Of a DNA stretch of 64,000 nt, positions 23,430 through 43,496 are shown piece by piece (positions within the stretch are counted from its first letter, which is position 1; every line of letters begins with the position of its first letter). Source of the DNA: a virus (taxonomy: Duplodnaviria; Heunggongvirae; Uroviricota; Caudoviricetes). Position numbers and translations under genes: made by a program. Under the pieces are notes generated by a model that was given only the letters and a program-made list of their open reading frames with translations, did not search any database and had not been told where the DNA came from. The stretch lies in the IMG/VR virus record IMGVR_UViG_2974506819_000001, positions 98,789 through 162,788 of that record; one strand, given 5' to 3'.

Positions 23430-23515
23430 TCTATTACCCTGCCTCCGTAAGGGGGTGGGGTAATGTAAAGTTTTACCTCCTTCTTTATATCTATGCGAAA
23501 AACAAGGAATACATC

Positions 23516-23791: not shown

Positions 23792-24253
23792 ATGGAAAAC
23801 GTATACTTGCCTGGATTACGTAATGCCCTGATGCTGGCATTCATTGAAGAAGCCCGCAGTACCGGTAACCAGGTCTACCTGACGTTAAACGCCCGTCGTT
23901 TAACTGACCCTGCATTAGCACAGTACATCAAAGACGGCGTCCTGACCATGAACGTGGCCATTCGTGCTACGCCGGGTTATGACGTTGAACCTGAATTCCT
24001 GATTCTGCATTCTTCCTTTAATGGAAAGAAAGCCCAGGTCTTTGCGTATTACGATGACGTGATGATGATTGTGGCCTATGATGAAACCCGTCAACCACGC
24101 GCCATGTTCCACATCACTGACCATCATCAGGTTTCTATCCAGATGGAGAACATCAACGCCGCAGCCTTTACGGAAACCAATCCGTTAGAAGCTGTAAACG
24201 AAGAAACTCCACCGCCAGCTAAAGAGCGTCCCAAACTCTCTGTAGTTAAATAA
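23792..24253 (+). CDS. sspB: SspB-like ClpXP specificity-enhancing adaptor homologue (153 aa)
   Basis: Colinear with E. coli SspB: LRNALMLAFIEEA, YIKDGVLTMNVAIRAT and FNGKKAQVFAYYDDVMMIVAYDETRQPRAMF match the SspB substrate-binding domain; C-terminal ...RPKLSVVK matches the ClpX-binding tail ...RPALRVVK. Confidence 0.6.
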   Translation: MENVYLPGLRNALMLAFIEEARSTGNQVYLTLNARRLTDPALAQYIKDGVLTMNVAIRATPGYDVEPEFLILHSSFNGKKAQVFAYYDDVMMIVAYDETRQPRAMFHITDHHQVSIQMENINAAAFTETNPLEAVNEETPPPAKERPKLSVVK

Positions 24254-24262
24254 GGGTGCCGT

Positions 24263-24607
24263 ATGCGTAAATGGTTTTCGGTATTAGGGCGCTACACGGT
24301 TGCCCTATGCCAGCTTGGGTTAAAACGTATTCTTCTTGGTCACCATACGCGTCGCCTCATTAAGAAAGAGGACCGTATCATTCAAGAGTTCGAAAGGGCA
24401 CTGACGGCACAAGGCAAAGCTTTGCGTAACCGGGGGTATTTGTCCCGGCAAAGCCTGAAGCACCTTACACTCCATCTGGCAGACGAATTGCACATGCAGA
24501 AGTGTCAGATTCGGAAAGTGACAGTAGAACTCATTGACGGTGATTTCTTTATTGATTTAGAAATCACTACCCATAACCGGACCGTGACCCGTTTGGTCGT
24601 TGTGTGA
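24263..24607 (+). CDS. Hypothetical protein (114 aa)
   Basis: ATG with SD aagggtg; stop overlaps the DHFR SD. Confidence 0.5.
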   Translation: MRKWFSVLGRYTVALCQLGLKRILLGHHTRRLIKKEDRIIQEFERALTAQGKALRNRGYLSRQSLKHLTLHLADELHMQKCQIRKVTVELIDGDFFIDLEITTHNRTVTRLVVV

Positions 24608-24614
24608 GGACAAC

Positions 24615-25193
24615 ATGAAAGTATCCATGATTCTGGCTATGGACCGCAACTGTTTAATCGGGAAAGGCGACCAACTTCCCTGGCGTCACCCGGAAGACCT
24701 GTTGTGGTTCAAACAGCAAACCATCGACAAACCGATTCTCATGGGACGTACGACCTATGAAGGATTAGGGCGTCCATTACCAAACCGCCCCAACATCGTG
24801 CTGAGTCGTGCTGACACTAACTTAGTGGGTGATGTAGCACGGGTGCAGTCGTATGAAGACGCACACTACCTGGCTAAGCAGTTGGGTTATGATGAGCTGA
24901 TGATTATCGGCGGCAAGCAGGTGTATGAGTCACTGATTGACCATGCTGACTGTATCTACGTCACGGTCATCGATCACGACTACAACGGTGACGTCCATAT
25001 GACCCATCCGTTGTTCGAAGCATTGGCTGGTCGGGACCTCTCTGAGAAGAACCCGGCCTTTACCAATCTCGGCTTTGATCGGTTGTTTACTCGCGACGGT
25101 GACGTGAGACATGTGTGGGATGTCGAGGTGTTGAACCGTGTCCTTAGCAATGATGTTATGCTCAATTTTGTGAAGCTAACACGTTGCCATTAA
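24615..25193 (+). CDS. frd: Dihydrofolate reductase
   Basis: Motifs MILAMDRNCLIGKGDQLPW, DLLWFKQQT, ILMGRTTYEGLGRPLPNRPNIVLSR; ATG 24615 with SD gagga (ORF-track 24600 is TTG). Confidence 0.85.
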   Translation: MKVSMILAMDRNCLIGKGDQLPWRHPEDLLWFKQQTIDKPILMGRTTYEGLGRPLPNRPNIVLSRADTNLVGDVARVQSYEDAHYLAKQLGYDELMIIGGKQVYESLIDHADCIYVTVIDHDYNGDVHMTHPLFEALAGRDLSEKNPAFTNLGFDRLFTRDGDVRHVWDVEVLNRVLSNDVMLNFVKLTRCH

Positions 25194-25202
25194 GGAAAGG
25201 AT

Positions 25203-25637
25203 ATGGGTCTGGGTTACATCGACGTTAAGCTCGATTCCAAGCAAGAAGATGACTTGATTCGGGACTTAACAACTTTAGGGATTAAAGCTCTACCAAAAGG
25301 GAAGTACCACTGTACTGTCATTTATGACAAACGTGAGGAACTTGATAAGCCGCTGTGCGACATCGACCCTGAGCAAGTCTTTGAAGCACACGTCGTGGAG
25401 GTTAAACCACTCGGAGATGCCCTGGTCTTTACTATGACGTCTAAAGATATCTATGATGAATTTAGACGATTGCAGGAAGCCGGATATCAGCACAGTTTCC
25501 CTGAGCTGTTGGTTCACATGTCAATTTGCTACGACTTCAGTGCGTACGACAAGTTGAAGGTGGAACAGTTCATGGGCCGATGGATAGGCCGCAACATTCA
25601 GTTCTCTCGCGAATCGTTACAACCCGTTAAGTATTGA
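25203..25637 (+). CDS. 2H phosphoesterase superfamily protein (LigT/Acb1-like), 144 aa
   Basis: Two H-x-[TS]-x motifs on hydrophobic strands ~70 aa apart: KYHCTVIY and LLVHMSICY; size typical of phage Acb1-type enzymes. Confidence 0.5.
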   Translation: MGLGYIDVKLDSKQEDDLIRDLTTLGIKALPKGKYHCTVIYDKREELDKPLCDIDPEQVFEAHVVEVKPLGDALVFTMTSKDIYDEFRRLQEAGYQHSFPELLVHMSICYDFSAYDKLKVEQFMGRWIGRNIQFSRESLQPVKY

Positions 25638-25760
25638 TGCTCCCCTGCCCTCGTCCTACGGGACGGGGGTGGGGTTAATCTATAAGAAATTTCATCTCTA
25701 AATTATTATCGTGTATGTAGACCACCTATATACACTTATCCAATCAAGAGGACACAAGTA

Positions 25761-26330
25761 ATGAAAAAGAAAGCGACACATAAATTCTTCCCTAACGGTA
25801 AACAAGTGGGTGAAGCCGTTTCTGCGTGTTTAAACAACATGGTGTGGGTTGCCGGGAGTCACGGTGTATTACCGCCGAACATGAATGTCACTGTGCCGTT
25901 CATGCTTACCGCCACTGACCGCATGATGGTGAAGAACTCCGTGTGCAATATCTTGATCGACAATGAAGCCAGCTGGCAGTTAATTCTGGTGGCCGCTTTC
26001 GACAATGCCAAATCCCGCTCTTACGTAACGGCGGATATCCATTTGAATCAATGGACCTTGGCTGAAGTTGGGCAGAAGATTATGGAAATCTGTGAAGTCA
26101 CGGTTCGCAAGATGGAAGAAGTGTTCTGTGGTGAAGGCGCAGTTAACCTAAACGATATTCACCACTACGGTTACATGCTGTCGCCTACGCAGGGTCTGAA
26201 CACTGACGTAATCGAAGAGCGGTTAATCGATGCCTTACAAACGGGTAGCTTCGATCACTACGACTGGCAGTCCCGTCCGGTTATTACTCCCAAAGACTTT
26301 ATTGACTCTATCGCGGCTGTGAAGATTTAA
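25761..26330 (+). CDS. Hypothetical protein (189 aa)
   Basis: ATG with SD aagagga. Confidence 0.55.
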   Translation: MKKKATHKFFPNGKQVGEAVSACLNNMVWVAGSHGVLPPNMNVTVPFMLTATDRMMVKNSVCNILIDNEASWQLILVAAFDNAKSRSYVTADIHLNQWTLAEVGQKIMEICEVTVRKMEEVFCGEGAVNLNDIHHYGYMLSPTQGLNTDVIEERLIDALQTGSFDHYDWQSRPVITPKDFIDSIAAVKI

Positions 26331-26347
26331 GATATAGAAATGTTCAC

Positions 26348-26394
26348 GTCTATATAGTTAGGGTGAATAAGTAATACATATTTATTCTTATAAT
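26348..26394 (+). promoter_or_regulatory. Conserved promoter-like motif copy (GTCTATATAGTTAGGGTGAATAA) followed 18 nt later by TATAAT
   Basis: Seen in sequence; near-identical copy at 43901-43923. Confidence 0.5.
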
Positions 26395-26431
26395 AACGAT
26401 ATTGACAGTTAATCTACTGGAGATAAAAATC

Positions 26432-27466
26432 ATGGCAAAACGTGATATTAATTACGCTGTAGAACGCATCACCAATTCCTTGTCGAATGCAATGAATGGC
26501 GGTACGTCGCAAGAACAACTTCTTGCTCTGTATAAGTCTCGACTGTTTGATGAAGAGCTGGTTGACAAAGATCGTCGCAATCAGGTTCTGATGGCAGTCA
26601 ATAAAGAACTCGGCATGGACATCAAGATGCGTGATGTTAAGCAAGCCGACAACACCTTACTTGAACAAGTTCTGGCTAACAGCGGTGAAACCGGGCCTGA
26701 AATTGTACAAGAGCCAAATGACCTTCCTGCTCCTACAGCAGAGTTCATTCTGGCAAACCGGGAAGAGTTCAGTGTGGCTGAAGTTACCAAAGCCGGCATC
26801 GACCTCCACTCCCATCAGGGTACTCAAGTAGCAGACGCTACAGGCCCAGTTTCTGAAGTTAAATCCGCAAACACCGTAAACACTAATTCCACTGAGGATA
26901 CCGACATGACTACCAACGCTTCTAACTCTTACAACACCACTACCTCTACTTCTGCTCAGGCTGACAACAACCACACCGCAGAAGAAGCGCTGAACAAAGG
27001 CGCTGAAACCGTTGACGAAACGCTGAAAGCTGGCGCTGAACAGGCGAAAGAAAAAGCGCAGGAAACGGTTGAGAATCTGGCCGATGAGTCCTTCATGGAT
27101 AAAGTCAATTCCATCCGTCCTGAATACCTGGCTGCAGGCGCTGCTGTAATCGGTGCAGGGGCAACTATCCTGAACGCTGATGCAGTAAACGCTTACAACC
27201 TGGCCGGCGGCGCAGCAGGCGTAGCAGCAAGCTACTTCGGTGCTAAACATTTCCTGGGTGGCCGTGAAAACAACATCGTGACCAAATCCATCGCAGTATC
27301 TGCGGGTCTGGTTGCTGGTGCTGCACTGGCTCGTGCTGGTGACATGGTGCGTGACTACGTTATCGCTGGCGATGCCAACCAGGCTGCTGATGGCGAAACC
27401 GTGGTTACCATCAAACCGGTTCCGGCTCCGGCACCTGTAGTAACTGTTGAACAGCCACTGTTCTAA
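26432..27466 (+). CDS. Highly expressed Ala/Gly-rich protein with glycine-zipper-like C-terminal hydrophobic segments (345 aa)
   Basis: ATG 26432 with SD ggag (ORF-track 26402 is TTG); strongly biased codons; promoter motif + TATAAT upstream; strong terminator downstream. Confidence 0.6.
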   Translation: MAKRDINYAVERITNSLSNAMNGGTSQEQLLALYKSRLFDEELVDKDRRNQVLMAVNKELGMDIKMRDVKQADNTLLEQVLANSGETGPEIVQEPNDLPAPTAEFILANREEFSVAEVTKAGIDLHSHQGTQVADATGPVSEVKSANTVNTNSTEDTDMTTNASNSYNTTTSTSAQADNNHTAEEALNKGAETVDETLKAGAEQAKEKAQETVENLADESFMDKVNSIRPEYLAAGAAVIGAGATILNADAVNAYNLAGGAAGVAASYFGAKHFLGGRENNIVTKSIAVSAGLVAGAALARAGDMVRDYVIAGDANQAADGETVVTIKPVPAPAPVVTVEQPLF

Positions 27467-27555: not shown

Positions 27556-27957
27556 ATGAAAAAGTTTATCGCTCCACTTGTTGCTGTTCTGCTGTCTGCT
27601 TGCGCTACCCAACCGAAGCCTGCGGTAGAAGTTACCTATGAGTGTTCCAACTTCACCATGGGTCGTATTACTTCCCTGACTGAAGCGCCGGCACCGTCAA
27701 AGATTATTCCGGTCAAGCAGGTTGTCGTTCAGAACGATGAAGGTTACTTCATTCCGAAAGGTGGTGCGTTCGAACGTGACCGCTACTACTTCTGGCTCAA
27801 TGAAGATGCCAGCACACAGAAAGCCGTCAGTGGCAAATTGGCCATGACTGAAAAAGATAGCAACTTTGTTATCTATGCTTTCCGTACTCCGTACAACGGC
27901 ACCAACCCGCAGGACGTTGTGGGTTACATGGCGCTGTTGGACTGCGTGAAGAAATAA
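27556..27957 (+). CDS. Lipoprotein (133 aa)
   Basis: Signal peptide with lipobox LLSAC. Confidence 0.6.
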   Translation: MKKFIAPLVAVLLSACATQPKPAVEVTYECSNFTMGRITSLTEAPAPSKIIPVKQVVVQNDEGYFIPKGGAFERDRYYFWLNEDASTQKAVSGKLAMTEKDSNFVIYAFRTPYNGTNPQDVVGYMALLDCVKK

Positions 27958-28241: not shown

Positions 28242-28877
28242 ATGTCTACTCCTGCCGTTACGTCCATTGCCGAAGCCATCAGTGACGTTCTGTGGCCGGA
28301 CAGTATTCTGATTGACTTTGAATCGTGCAGCCTCCAGCCTGACAGTGCACTACTCAGCTTTGGGGCATTGGCCTTTAACCGCCATCAGGTTGCCAGTGTG
28401 TCGCATTACGCCAACATCCCTGAGATGATGATTAACATCAACCTCGACCTTACTACCCAGTTCCTGCAAGGGTTTGATTTTGATAAAGACACCGCTAAAT
28501 GGTGGCGGGAAAAGAACGGACACAACATCAAAGGGTTGTACATTGATCGTGTGGAACTGATCGACATGGTGACCCAACTGAATACGCTGTTAGCGACGGT
28601 GAAGAAGAACTGCAAAGACGTGGCCTTCTTCTGTCGTCATCCGCATGCTGACTACGTGTGGTTACGTACCGTGTGTGAGCGCTTAGGGGTTCGCAATCCC
28701 ATCAGCTACAACCGCATCTATGATGTGGCGACCTATGTGTTCAGCCGTACTGATAACCTGCGTGGGGTTTATGAACTGGATACGCCGCGCAGCAGTTTCC
28801 ACCATGCGTTCAATGACTGCTACCGGGATGCATTACAGGTTGCTACTGTTAACGAAAGGAAGATACTCGATGTCTAA
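28242..28877 (+). CDS. DEDDh-family 3'-5' exonuclease-like protein (211 aa)
   Basis: Exo I ILIDFES (DxE), Exo II-like HPHADYVWL, Exo III FHHAFNDCYRDA (HxAxxD). Confidence 0.55.
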   Translation: MSTPAVTSIAEAISDVLWPDSILIDFESCSLQPDSALLSFGALAFNRHQVASVSHYANIPEMMININLDLTTQFLQGFDFDKDTAKWWREKNGHNIKGLYIDRVELIDMVTQLNTLLATVKKNCKDVAFFCRHPHADYVWLRTVCERLGVRNPISYNRIYDVATYVFSRTDNLRGVYELDTPRSSFHHAFNDCYRDALQVATVNERKILDV

Positions 28878-29328
28878 GATTGCATACATGACCTATCTGG
28901 TGAATGAGATACCGATTGTGTTTCATTCTGCGCTTATGTCGCTGGCTAAGGAGCTCGTAGCATATGAGCAACAGCTTACGATGGATGTGCTGGGAAAACA
29001 GCGTCACATGGTTCCTGTGGACTCTGTGAAGGACTTCTTTATTGAAGACAGCGTGGTTGTGGTGGCCTTTAATGAGCGGGAAGAGTTACCGGTGGGGTTC
29101 TGTAGCTATTGGGCAGAACCGACCCAGGGTCGGCTGATTATCGACACGGTTTACGTTGCTCCTGCTTACCGTCAACAAGGCATTGCCAGGGCCATGTTAG
29201 CAGGACCCCTGGACATGGGGTTCTCACTTATTGACATTCACGCCATGGCGAATAACCCCGCAGCGTTAAAACTGTATGCGTCATTAGGATTTAAACCCTA
29301 TATTACTACGATGACGAAAGTAAATTAA
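28870..29328 (+). CDS. GNAT-family N-acetyltransferase (152 aa)
   Basis: ATG 28870 with SD aaggaag, overlapping upstream stop by 8 nt (ATGTCTAA); motif A YRQQGIARAML; ORF-track N-terminal extension rejected. Confidence 0.65.
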   Translation: MSKIAYMTYLVNEIPIVFHSALMSLAKELVAYEQQLTMDVLGKQRHMVPVDSVKDFFIEDSVVVVAFNEREELPVGFCSYWAEPTQGRLIIDTVYVAPAYRQQGIARAMLAGPLDMGFSLIDIHAMANNPAALKLYASLGFKPYITTMTKVN

Positions 29329-29354: not shown

Positions 29355-30356
29355 ATGTCAAGCTTAGAACAAATGTTTGATAAAGCCATGAACGAACATA
29401 CTGCTTCGTTTAATTCAAACCTAAAAACCATTAATGCCAAAGGGTGGGTAAACGATTGGGTTAACCGCCACAACGGCAAAGTTCCAATTAACTTTATCCC
29501 TTACGAAGAATTTCGTGCTCACCTAACTTCATTCTTTAAACCCGGCCACGGTCACGATGAAGCCGGTGCTGATGTTGTTGGGTTAACACTGTTTCAACAT
29601 TTGATGTACAACTTGACCAAAGTGGATATCCATGTCGAAGAAACCGTTATTGTGGAGTTAATGAATGACACCACCTTCGATAAAGATGAAGCAAAAATAC
29701 CCACAGAAGTATTAAAGCGGCTCCCCTACTGGTCGGTGCACATTCCTATCACCAGAAGCTTTAATGAAGAGGTAGACGATCCGAACGCCAATTATTATAA
29801 GTTTCTCGAGGTGTACGTCAGCCGCATTAACATCGATAATGACGACGCGTTATTAATTGACATCAATGCGATGTACAAAGATAAAATTCTGCAACACACC
29901 AGAGTGATATCATTAAATTCCCCTACTATACGGGAGGGGTTAGAACGTCACGCCGACATGAATGACCGGCTGGATATAAACAAACACGGTGATATTTTTG
30001 ACTTTACCTTACGTCAAGTGTTTCCGGTTATTTTGTATGTGTGTTCTCAGCAAAAACAAAAGGACATTGGTAGTTCCCCCCTGACCGGGTACAGTATCAA
30101 ACGAAAAGGGAAGAACTTTGTTTTAAAAGCAGCCCCTAAAGTCAAAGTGATTGAATATGGACAAGAGCTAAAAGAACAGCTTGAACGTTTCCATCAATTG
30201 CTAAAACAAGAGCGTGACTTTAAAGGCCGTATTCCCCATATTCGTAAAGCGCACTGGCACGGTTACTGGATAGGACCTCGTGTTGGTGAACGTGATTACA
30301 TCTATCATTGGATTCCGCCAGTCATTGTGTCGGGTTCTGAAGCAGAAATTAAGTAA
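29355..30356 (+). CDS. Hypothetical protein (333 aa)
   Basis: ATG with strong SD aaggagac. Confidence 0.55.
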   Translation: MSSLEQMFDKAMNEHTASFNSNLKTINAKGWVNDWVNRHNGKVPINFIPYEEFRAHLTSFFKPGHGHDEAGADVVGLTLFQHLMYNLTKVDIHVEETVIVELMNDTTFDKDEAKIPTEVLKRLPYWSVHIPITRSFNEEVDDPNANYYKFLEVYVSRINIDNDDALLIDINAMYKDKILQHTRVISLNSPTIREGLERHADMNDRLDINKHGDIFDFTLRQVFPVILYVCSQQKQKDIGSSPLTGYSIKRKGKNFVLKAAPKVKVIEYGQELKEQLERFHQLLKQERDFKGRIPHIRKAHWHGYWIGPRVGERDYIYHWIPPVIVSGSEAEIK

Positions 30357-42983: not shown

Positions 42984-43496
42984 ATGCCACATTTCTTAGG
43001 GGCGGATTTTCATCTGTGTGACCCCAGTTCCCTCAAATACCGAAAACAGTTTCCCTCTCTGGGGTATCACGACGAATACGTCTGCGATGTGGTCTTGGCC
43101 AAACTTCGCCCTAATGACCTGCTCACCATGGTAGGAGACTGCCTGGTGGGAAAGGGAGCCATTGAGCTGATTAAAAAGTTTCCCTGCCGTAAGCGCCTGA
43201 TTGCAGGCAACCATGAATTTGAGAAAGGCATTAACTTCGCCGATTTAGTAGGAGTCGTGGATGAGATTCACTCATCGTACAAATGGCGAGGCCGTTTCAA
43301 TATTGTCCATATTCCGCCGCATCCTGCCCATCTTCGTGGTAAGACTATTATTCATGGGCATCTTCACGAAGTCATTATACCTGATCCTCGTTTCATTAAC
43401 GTCTCGTTAGAAGCGACAGGGTATCGTCTGGTACAGGCCGAAGAGATTATTACCGGCGAGTATCGTTCTTATCGTATTCCGGAGGTTTGCACGTGA
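42984..43496 (+). CDS. Small calcineurin-like metallophosphoesterase (170 aa)
   Basis: MPP motifs DFH (I), GDCLVGKG (II), GNHEF (III), GHLHE (VI); SD aaggataa. Confidence 0.6.
   Translation: MPHFLGADFHLCDPSSLKYRKQFPSLGYHDEYVCDVVLAKLRPNDLLTMVGDCLVGKGAIELIKKFPCRKRLIAGNHEFEKGINFADLVGVVDEIHSSYKWRGRFNIVHIPPHPAHLRGKTIIHGHLHEVIIPDPRFINVSLEATGYRLVQAEEIITGEYRSYRIPEVCT

What the first reader, a model, noticed from the sequence alone, without database searches (positions are those of the whole stretch)
25203..25637. Acb1/LigT-like 2H phosphoesterase directly downstream of DHFR
The 144-aa protein has two H-x-[TS]-x motifs on hydrophobic beta-strands (KYHCTVIY near residue 36, LLVHMSICY near residue 105). 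The spacing and protein size are those of minimal 2H phosphoesterases. This family includes the phage anti-CBASS nuclease Acb1, which cleaves cyclic oligonucleotide immune signals. It also includes LigT/RNA 2',3'-cyclic phosphodiesterases used to repair tRNA cleaved by anticodon nucleases. Either role would make it a counter-defence enzyme.
Basis: partly seen in the sequence, partly recalled or inferred. Interest (0 to 1): 0.7.

Follow-up and report, generated by a model that had tools for sequence, protein, structure and literature searches.

The report
Lid-less Acb1 phosphodiesterase of phage RisingSun
This gene of the jumbo Erwinia phage RisingSun encodes a small enzyme of the known Acb1 family, which phages use to destroy the cyclic-nucleotide alarm signals of bacterial CBASS immunity.

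Summary
The ORF at 25203-25637 (+) is real. It is gp120 of Erwinia phage vB_EamM_RisingSun, a 235-kb phage that encodes a nuclear shell protein. It starts 9 nt after a confirmed DHFR gene and carries H36-C-T-V and H105-M-S-I as described.

The Acb1 reading is therefore supported and the LigT/RNA-repair reading is disfavoured. UniProt already names this exact protein "Anti-CBASS protein Acb1", so novelty at the annotation level is nil. The GenBank label ("putative structural protein") and the RefSeq label ("RNA ligase") are misleading.

One point is of some interest. gp120 is a minimal core: it lacks the C-terminal lid of T4 Acb1, the N-terminal lid of the Burkholderia phage enzyme PDE-9, and the Trp-bearing hairpin. 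Its substrate range is therefore uncertain, and no member of its jumbo-phage subfamily appears among the enzymes tested in the papers I read.

The parts
25203..25637 (+). CDS of RisingSun gp120 (144 aa plus stop), an Acb1-family 2H phosphodiesterase
25308..25319 (+). First catalytic motif, H36-C-T38-V, on strand beta 36-41
   Evidence: H36 is invariant and T38 nearly invariant in 42 relatives. It aligns with H44-x-T46 of T4/FBB1 Acb1 and H50 of PDE-9.
25515..25526 (+). Second catalytic motif, H105-M-S107-I, on strand beta 105-110
   Evidence: H105 is invariant. Position 107 is Ser in 37 and Thr in 5 of the 42 relatives. It aligns with H113-x-T115 of T4 Acb1 and H123 of PDE-9.
25192..25200 (+). 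Shine-Dalgarno-like AAGGAAAGG, overlapping the DHFR stop codon (25191-25193)
   Evidence: Read directly from the sequence.
25642..25674 (+). G+C-rich hairpin directly after the stop codon; a probable transcription terminator or RNA 3'-end element
   Evidence: RNA fold of 25630-25700 gives -31.6 kcal/mol, z -4.1, with 0 of 200 shuffles as stable. The hairpin is kept, with changes on both arms, in three relatives. There is no clean T-run, so the consensus terminator scan did not call it.
24615..25193 (+). Upstream neighbour gp119, dihydrofolate reductase (context, same strand, 9-nt gap)
   Evidence: Pfam PF00186 at E 5e-42. The DHFR-Acb1 order is kept in four metagenomic relatives.
23438..23459 (+). 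Related hairpin, CCTGCC..GGTGGG, upstream of gp116. With the hairpin at 25644-25673 it brackets the five-gene block gp116-gp120 (context)
   Evidence: The pattern occurs only twice in the window, against 0.1 expected. This one was also called terminator-like.

Best explanation
gp120 is a cytoplasmic, metal-independent 2H phosphodiesterase of the Acb1 family. By homology, the tetrad H36/T38 + H105/S107 performs acid-base catalysis. The 2'-OH next to the scissile phosphate attacks a 3'-5' bond of a cyclic di- or trinucleotide. This gives a 2',3'-cyclic-phosphate intermediate that is then hydrolysed to a linear 3'-phosphate product. Destroying the second messenger made by host cGAS/DncV-like nucleotidyltransferases (CD-NTases) keeps CBASS effectors off and prevents abortive infection. 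For a phage whose DNA is already shielded by a protein shell, signalling-based suicide systems are among the defences that remain dangerous. This would explain why the gene is kept.

Shown here: the ORF, family membership by sequence and predicted fold, conservation of the catalytic tetrad, purifying selection and conserved gene order. Inferred: catalysis, the substrate (most likely 3'3'-cGAMP-type CBASS signals), cytoplasmic location and the counter-defence role. Because gp120 lacks both known lids and the Trp hairpin, I expect a slower or narrower enzyme than T4 Acb1.
For: - **Family match.** Pfam Acb1 PF23474 is the only family hit, at E 2.4e-13 and above the curated cut-off. All 42 relatives found by an exhaustive HMMER search match PF23474.
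- **Link to solved enzymes.** A profile of those relatives hits FBB1 Acb1 (7T26) at E 8.9e-17 and BCSR5 PDE-9 (9Q2G) at 4.4e-15.
- **Predicted fold.** The AlphaFold model has pLDDT 93.2 and pTM 0.86. An independent BFVD model of the same protein agrees at TM 0.98.
- **Catalytic residues.** H36 and H105 align with the catalytic histidines named in the papers: H44/H113 of T4 Acb1 (PMC9117128) and H50/H123 of PDE-9 (bioRxiv 10.1101/2025.08.21.671373).
- **Stacking residues.** Y5 and F99 correspond to the base-stacking Y12 and F107 and are aromatic in 42/42 and 41/42 relatives.
- **Selection and gene order.** dN/dS is 0.05. Gene order is conserved in relatives with 75-94% identical proteins, and the gene lies downstream of RNase H also in EL and pTD1.
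- **Distribution.** The subfamily is found only in some lineages of jumbo phages, as expected of an accessory gene.
- **Neighbourhood in other phages.** In Rak2-like phages the homologue sits among NAD-salvage genes (NAMPT, Sir2, Nudix); from my own knowledge such genes suggest counter-defence.
- **Host relevance.** E. amylovora strains carry CBASS type I, and acb1 is the commonest anti-defence gene called in Erwinia phages (PMC13480210).
- **Phage type.** RisingSun encodes a nuclear shell protein (gp28) and PhuZ (gp17).
Against: - There is no biochemical or genetic test of gp120. Within this jumbo-phage subfamily, the two members listed by Doherty et al. (EJP2 EJP02_129, pTD1 gp030) were catalogued but not purified, and I found no tested member in the papers I read.
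- gp120 lacks the C-terminal lid of T4/FBB1 Acb1 (residues 145-152, including the stacking W147).
- It lacks the 15-residue N-terminal lid of PDE-9.
- It lacks the hairpin that carries W74.
- The adenine-reading E141 is Q140 here and varies across the subfamily.
- A T4 Acb1 mutant without its lid was inactive in vivo, and PDE-9 without its lid kept only 3'3'-cGAMP cleavage.
- Two structural groups of viral 2H PDEs cleaved none of 18 messengers tested.
- Identity to any characterised enzyme is only 18-21%.
Confidence: 0.65

Rival explanations
1. It is a 2H phosphodiesterase aimed at a different nucleotide signal. With no lid and a short hairpin the pocket would be more open. It could accept larger rings (cA4/cA6 of type III CRISPR), 2'-5'-linked oligoadenylates, or ADP-ribose-derived cyclic phosphates, rather than CBASS dinucleotides.
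Against: The closest solved structures and the closest sequence families are all cGAMP-cleaving enzymes. PDE-9 without its lid still preferred 3'3'-cGAMP. No data point directly to another substrate.
Confidence: 0.17
2. It is a LigT-like RNA 2',3'-cyclic phosphodiesterase that heals RNA or tRNA ends cut by host anticodon nucleases, as part of an RNA repair pathway.
Against: gp120 itself hits no LigT-type Pfam family even at E<=10. LigT-type structures score well below the three viral cyclic-dinucleotide PDEs. The protein is 25-45 residues shorter than LigT enzymes. No RNA ligase, polynucleotide kinase or other repair partner is annotated in the 230 kb of the 235-kb RisingSun genome that I read, though about 60% of the genes are hypothetical. 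The "RNA ligase" label is the historical name for the 2H fold, not evidence of ligation.
Confidence: 0.07
3. It is a virion component, as GenBank labels it. It would be either purely structural or an enzyme packaged in the particle and delivered with the DNA.
For: The homologue CBB_118 of Pectobacterium phage CBB (about 30% identical) was found in purified virions by ESI-MS/MS, with 7 unique peptides and 60% coverage (PMC5259590). This is probably the source of the label that spread by BLAST. A review states that phiKZ injects the signal sponge Tad1 (PMC13282480), so there is a precedent for packaged anti-signalling proteins.
Against: gp120 is not among the 31 RisingSun proteins detected by LC-MS/MS of lysate, though that survey was shallow (PMC6034870). 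The gene lies in a block of metabolic and replication genes, not among virion genes. An intact, conserved catalytic tetrad argues against a purely structural role. Packaging would add to the enzyme role, not replace it.
Confidence: 0.08

Closest known systems
Burkholderia phage BCSR5 phosphodiesterase "2H PDE-9" (PDB 9Q2G/9Q2Y; Doherty et al., bioRxiv 10.1101/2025.08.21.671373)
   Different: gp120 lacks the 15-residue N-terminal lid of PDE-9 and the Trp-containing hairpin 'IWQDHKGR'. Identity is only about 18-20%. PDE-9 has been assayed: it cleaves 3'3'-cGAMP and spares 2'3'-c-di-AMP. gp120 has not been assayed.
Acb1 of phages T4 (gene 57B) and FBB1 (PDB 7T26/7T27; Hobbs et al. 2022, PMC9117128)
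   Different: gp120 has no C-terminal lid (145-152, W147) and no W74 hairpin. E141 is replaced by Q140, the second motif is HxS, and there is an inserted helix at 114-126. Identity is 20-21%. T4-type Acb1 occurs in about 1,500 mostly T4-like phage records. The gp120 type occurs in about 95 records; all 60 listed are large phages of 184-366 kb.
Penguinpox cGAMP phosphodiesterase (PDB 9BKQ)
   Different: It is a eukaryotic-virus protein of about 200 aa with its own N-terminal lid, acts on 2'3'-cGAMP, and is 13% identical.
LigT / bacterial and archaeal RNA 2',3'-cyclic phosphodiesterases ('2'-5' RNA ligase', e.g. PDB 5LDI, 4QAK, 1VGJ)
   Different: These proteins are larger (170-190 aa). gp120 gives no significant sequence match to them. 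They act on RNA ends, and they are cellular housekeeping or repair enzymes rather than phage accessory genes.

Membership tests
Acb1 (Pfam PF23474, anti-CBASS 2H phosphodiesterase) | Sequence match to the curated family model above its gathering score | tested here: met
   50.5 bits against a cut-off of 27, E 2.4e-13, covering residues 5-142 and profile positions 4-137 of 144. All 42 relatives match.
Acb1 (Pfam PF23474, anti-CBASS 2H phosphodiesterase) | Compact 2H phosphoesterase fold closest to solved Acb1 structures | tested here: met
Acb1 (Pfam PF23474, anti-CBASS 2H phosphodiesterase) | Active-site HxT/HxT tetrad (T4 H44, T46, H113, T115) | tested here: met
   H36, T38, H105 and S107 align with the tetrad. 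Both His are invariant. The second motif is HxS in 37 of the 42 relatives. The His-His distance in the model could not be measured, because coordinates are not exposed.
Acb1 (Pfam PF23474, anti-CBASS 2H phosphodiesterase) | [quoted passage not shown] | tested here: not met
   gp120 ends three residues after the position of T4 P142, and its first strand begins at residue 3. The ORF cannot be extended at either end. The lid is a feature of the characterised enzymes, not of the Pfam definition.
Acb1 (Pfam PF23474, anti-CBASS 2H phosphodiesterase) | Aromatic base-stacking residues Y12, W74, F107 and the adenine contact E141 | tested here: inconclusive
   Y5 and F99 are present and conserved. The W74 hairpin is deleted (gp120 has 'KPLGD'). 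E141 is Q140 and varies in the subfamily.
Acb1 (Pfam PF23474, anti-CBASS 2H phosphodiesterase) | Cleaves 3'3'-cGAMP and related CBASS signals; rescues phage from CBASS | not testable with these tools
   This needs enzyme assays and plaque assays. None is published for gp120. Its closest catalogued relatives, EJP2 EJP02_129 (37% identical) and pTD1 gp030 (31%), were listed but not purified.
LigT / 2'-5' RNA ligase-type RNA cyclic phosphodiesterase | Sequence match to LigT-type Pfam models (PF02834, PF13563) | tested here: not met
   There is no hit for gp120 even at E<=10. Nineteen of 42 relatives give weak secondary hits to PF13563, the best at 1.7e-06.
LigT / 2'-5' RNA ligase-type RNA cyclic phosphodiesterase | LigT-type enzymes are the closest structural neighbours | tested here: not met
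LigT / 2'-5' RNA ligase-type RNA cyclic phosphodiesterase | Genomic partners for RNA repair (RNA ligase, polynucleotide kinase/phosphatase) | tested here: inconclusive
   None is annotated in RisingSun records 1-230,000. Most genes are hypothetical, and I ran no profile search of the whole genome.

The most novel reading that the evidence does not exclude
gp120 represents a natural lid-less, short-hairpin form of Acb1 that is widespread in jumbo phages: about 26 of 42 cluster representatives have at most 7 residues before the first strand, and all but one lack any C-terminal extension. Its substrate range may differ in a useful way from T4 Acb1. One possibility is a narrow enzyme that removes CBASS signals while sparing the 2'3'-c-di-AMP decoy guarded by Panoptes. 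Another is an open-pocket enzyme that also takes larger type III CRISPR rings. In some lineages it may be packaged in the virion and delivered at injection, as the CBB proteome hints.
Probability: 0.2. Interest if true: 0.5.

Novelty: already known. Interest (0 to 1): 0.2.

Why it matters
The practical value is correcting the annotation. GenBank calls gp120 a "putative structural protein" and RefSeq calls it an "RNA ligase". Both hide a probable counter-defence enzyme in a fire-blight phage that could be considered for biocontrol, where host-range limits set by CBASS matter.

Scientifically it adds one data point. A 2026 review counts only one anti-defence protein (Tad1) as described in jumbo phages (PMC13282480). 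Yet nucleus-forming and Rak2-like jumbo phages carry a distinct minimal branch of Acb1. If that lid-less branch proves active, it would show that the lid is dispensable in some cores, and it would help define what sets substrate choice in viral 2H phosphodiesterases. The kind of enzyme, its mechanism and its role are established, so a specialist would not be surprised.

Tried and rejected
- **Second 2H enzyme in the window?** I asked whether the gene annotated "phosphoesterase" (gp147, 42984-43496) is a second 2H enzyme. It is unrelated to gp120 (BLASTP E 20), has no Pfam or PDB sequence hit, and shows GD../GNHE-type motifs, so it looks like a metallophosphoesterase.
- **Repeated promoter motif?** I looked for a repeated motif from the conserved sequence upstream of gp121. 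Only one exact copy exists in the window. The looser matches exceed chance (14 against about 6 expected) but are not convincing.
- **Sigma-70 and terminator scans.** They gave nothing beyond background around the gene.
- **Second virion proteome.** I looked for support for packaging in the phAPEC6 proteome paper and found no usable mention.
- **Nucleus-forming phage review.** It contains no mention of Acb1 or CBASS.
- **Deep database search.** The word-indexed protein search returned few sequences: 6 with the single query and 26 with the profile. The exhaustive HMMER search was needed to see the family.
- **His-His distance.** I could not measure it, because model coordinates are not exposed. 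Adjacency rests on superposition with solved enzymes.
- **"RNA ligase" label.** I rejected it as a relic of the 2H-fold name.
- **"Structural protein" label.** I rejected it as annotation transfer from CBB_118.

Full report
**Origin of the window.** The stretch 24000-27000 is 100% identical to Erwinia phage vB_EamM_RisingSun (MF459646 / NC_042018, 235,108 bp); window coordinate + 98,788 gives the record coordinate. It is 97.6% identical to the sister phage Joad. RisingSun encodes a nuclear shell protein (gp28) and the tubulin PhuZ (gp17), so it is a nucleus-forming jumbo phage. The finding corresponds to gp120. GenBank labels it "putative structural protein" and RefSeq labels it "RNA ligase".

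**Check of the observation.** The ORF runs 25203-25637 on the + strand, is 144 aa long and starts with ATG. Because the ORF list starts at the first start codon after a stop, it cannot be extended upstream. A Shine-Dalgarno-like AAGGAAAGG lies at 25192-25200 and overlaps the stop codon of the upstream gene. The upstream gene (24615-25193) is a true dihydrofolate reductase, Pfam PF00186 at E 5e-42. On their own the two motifs are weak evidence: 3.4% of shuffled versions of the protein have two H-x-[ST], and 0.7-0.8% do so with the hydrophobic fourth residue or the observed spacing. Homology is what gives the motifs meaning.

**Family by sequence.**
- The only Pfam hit is PF23474 "Anti-CBASS protein Acb1", at 50.5 bits against a gathering score of 27 and E 2.4e-13, over residues 5-142.
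- PHROG 755, named "RNA ligase", matches at 2e-30.
- A single-sequence search of PDB chains finds only the Burkholderia phage BCSR5 phosphodiesterase (9Q2G, E 0.0025). The alignment places H36 on H50 and H105 on H123 of that enzyme.
- An exhaustive HMMER search of 1.84 billion cluster representatives finds 89 relatives at E<=0.001.
- In an alignment of 42 of them, which are 24-56% identical to gp120, M1, H36 and H105 are the only invariant columns. T38, Y41, G71, G94 and Y110 are nearly invariant.
- All 42 match PF23474, and 19 also give weak hits to the general 2'-5' RNA ligase superfamily model.
- The profile of this alignment hits the crystallised FBB1 Acb1 (7T26/7T27) at E 8.9e-17 and 9Q2G at 4.4e-15. 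The next 2H enzyme, the Arabidopsis cyclic phosphodiesterase 1FSI, is not significant at E 0.53; one unrelated chain lies between them, the Pam3 portal protein (8HDS, E 8.5e-05).

**Family by predicted structure.**
- An AlphaFold2 model built on 26 sequences has mean pLDDT 93.2 and pTM 0.86. The two His motifs lie on strands 36-41 and 105-110.
- Foldseek against the PDB ranks 9q2g first (E 1.6e-8, TM 0.81), then FBB1 Acb1 (TM 0.62). LigT, CPDase and related 2H enzymes follow only at E>=4e-4.
- The three nearest solved structures are therefore all viral enzymes that degrade cyclic-dinucleotide immune signals.
- Against BFVD the top hit is the same protein, UniProt A0A223LHU1, at TM 0.98. It is already named "Anti-CBASS protein Acb1 [Erwinia phage vB_EamM_RisingSun]". 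This confirms the model independently and shows the assignment is already public.

**Evidence that the gene is functional.** Four metagenomic relatives with 75-94% identical proteins keep exactly 144 codons. Against the closest one (87% nucleotide identity), pS is 0.49 and pN 0.038, giving dN/dS 0.05. The order RNase H ... DHFR - Acb1 - ... - Rv2179c-like exonuclease - GNAT is kept in these relatives. The gene also lies downstream of RNase H in Pseudomonas phage EL (44% identical protein) and Vibrio phage pTD1 (31%). This points to vertical inheritance within this branch of nucleus-forming phages.

A strong G+C hairpin follows the stop codon at 25642-25674 (-31.6 kcal/mol, z -4.1). It is kept in the relatives with changes on both arms. 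A related hairpin lies at 23438-23459. The pattern CCTGCC..GGTGGG occurs only at these two places in the window, and they bracket the five genes gp116-gp120. That is consistent with one transcription unit, but this is an inference.

**How gp120 differs from characterised Acb1 enzymes.** I aligned it with FBB1 Acb1, a T4-type 57B protein (RB32), BCSR5 PDE-9 and several relatives. I mapped onto this the residues named by Hobbs et al. (PMC9117128).
- The tetrad H44/T46/H113/T115 corresponds to H36/T38/H105/S107.
- The stacking residues Y12 and F107 correspond to Y5 and F99.
- The hairpin carrying W74 is shortened to 'KPLGD'.
- E141, which reads the adenine, is Q140.
- The protein ends one residue after the 'P-V-K' that aligns with T4 'P-L-K'. 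The whole C-terminal lid (145-152, with W147) is therefore absent.
- The first strand starts at residue 3, so the 15-residue N-terminal lid seen in PDE-9 is absent too.
- gp120 shares with PDE-9, but not with T4, an alpha-helix (114-126) after the second His strand.

Across the 42 representatives, only one has a C-terminal extension. Thirteen have 11 or more residues ahead of the first strand and may carry a PDE-9-like lid. About 26 are as short as gp120. The terminal Tyr of gp120 is not conserved even among close relatives.

This matters because Doherty et al. report three relevant results (bioRxiv 10.1101/2025.08.21.671373):
- T4 Acb1 without its lid no longer triggers Panoptes, read as loss of catalysis.
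- PDE-9 without its lid still degrades 3'3'-cGAMP over an hour but loses 2'3'-c-di-AMP cleavage.
- Two structural groups of viral 2H enzymes cleaved none of 18 messengers.

Their catalogue includes two members of the gp120 subfamily: Escherichia phage EJP2 EJP02_129 (37% identical to gp120) and pTD1 gp030 (31%). Neither was purified.

**Most likely mechanism.** By homology, gp120 is a metal-independent phosphodiesterase. The His/Thr-His/Ser tetrad catalyses attack of a ribose 2'-OH on the adjacent 3'-5' phosphodiester of a cyclic oligonucleotide. This passes through a 2',3'-cyclic phosphate to a linear 3'-phosphate product, which removes the CBASS second messenger before effectors fire. The context fits. 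A protein shell protects the DNA of such phages from nucleases, but not from signalling systems that kill the cell. A pangenome study reports CBASS type I in E. amylovora and acb1 as the most frequent anti-defence gene in Erwinia phages, in 61 of 227 genomes (PMC13480210). The subfamily is present in about 95 phage records. All 60 listed are large phages of 184-366 kb: EL-like, RisingSun-like, pTD1-like, Aeromonas, Miami-like and Rak2-like. No phiKZ-type phage appears among them, as expected of an accessory gene. Catalysis, substrate and the role in infection are all inferred. Given the missing lid and Trp hairpin, I put 0.65 on the specific anti-CBASS reading.

**Rival explanations.**
- *Another nucleotide signal* (larger type III CRISPR rings, 2'-5' oligoadenylates, ADP-ribose-derived cyclic phosphates). 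This is the strongest rival, because the pocket should be more open. Rak2-like homologues also sit between NAMPT and Sir2/Nudix genes.
- *LigT-like RNA repair.* This is disfavoured. gp120 gives no LigT-type Pfam hit, LigT structures rank clearly lower, and no RNA ligase or polynucleotide kinase is annotated in the first 230 kb of the 235-kb genome. That last point is weak, because most genes are hypothetical.
- *"Structural protein".* The label can be traced. The CBB homologue CBB_118 was found in purified virions with 7 peptides and 60% coverage (PMC5259590), and the name spread by BLAST. gp120 is not among the 31 proteins detected in a RisingSun lysate (PMC6034870). Packaging of an Acb1-like enzyme remains an open and mildly interesting possibility for Rak2-like phages.

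**Verdict.** The protein belongs to a known, curated family and is already named as such in UniProt. I therefore rate the finding as already known and of low interest (0.2). The residual novelty lies in the lid-less minimal architecture shared by much of this jumbo-phage subfamily, for which I found no biochemical test.

Noticed in passing
L004 2995-3441 (Pectobacterium phage CBB, CBB_118): This Acb1-family homologue (about 30% identical to gp120) was detected in purified CBB virions by ESI-MS/MS, with 7 unique peptides and 60.4% coverage (PMC5259590, Table 4). That explains the "structural protein" labels on this family. It also suggests that some jumbo phages package the enzyme.
   Followed up: partly
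L009 1159-5765 (Erwinia phage Hallingskeid) and L004 82-4499 (CBB): In Rak2-like jumbo phages the Acb1-like gene sits between nicotinamide phosphoribosyltransferase and Sir2 genes; Hallingskeid also has Nudix and cytidylyltransferase genes there. This NAD-salvage neighbourhood looks like a counter-defence island.
   Followed up: no
window 23438-23459 and 25644-25673: Two related G+C-rich hairpins (CCTGCC...GGTGGG) are the only two matches in the 64 kb, against 0.1 expected. They bracket the gene block gp116-gp120. The second is kept, with changes on both arms, in three relatives.
   Followed up: partly
window 25700-25735 (intergenic, upstream of gp121 at 25761): The AT-rich motif ATTATTAnCGTGTATGyAGnCCACCTrTATA is conserved in three relatives whose Acb1 genes are only 70-87% identical to gp120 at nucleotide level. 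It is possibly a phage promoter. Only one exact copy exists in the window.
   Followed up: partly
window 28242-28877 (gp124), 28720-29328 (gp125), 29355-30356 (gp126): An Rv2179c-like 3'-5' exoribonuclease (Pfam E 4e-13) is followed by a GNAT acetyltransferase. In a metagenomic relative (L016) the next gene carries a precomputed hit to PF26125 "AcrVA2-like". RisingSun gp126 itself gave no Pfam hit at E<=0.01.
   Followed up: partly
window 23792-24253 (gp117): This is an SspB-like protein: Pfam PF04386 at exactly the gathering score of 27.0 bits, and PHROG 8945 at E 3e-64. It is a possible ClpXP-adaptor mimic, in the same gene block as DHFR and Acb1.
   Followed up: no
window 42984-43496 (gp147): It is annotated "phosphoesterase" (PHROG 547) but is unrelated to gp120. 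GD.. and GNHE motifs suggest a calcineurin-like metallophosphoesterase. It has no Pfam or PDB sequence hit.
   Followed up: partly
L018 (Logan SRR19636044 contig of 232,793 bp); protein P0001: A RisingSun-like phage genome, with an Acb1 protein 94% identical to gp120, is present in public assemblies. One copy of the protein is filed in NCBI under Salmonella enterica. This suggests relatives that infect, or contaminate samples of, other enterobacteria.
   Followed up: no
window 27556-27957 (gp123): This small lipoprotein-like protein matches the Cor superinfection-exclusion PHROG (E 9e-12), which is unusual in a strictly lytic jumbo phage.
   Followed up: no
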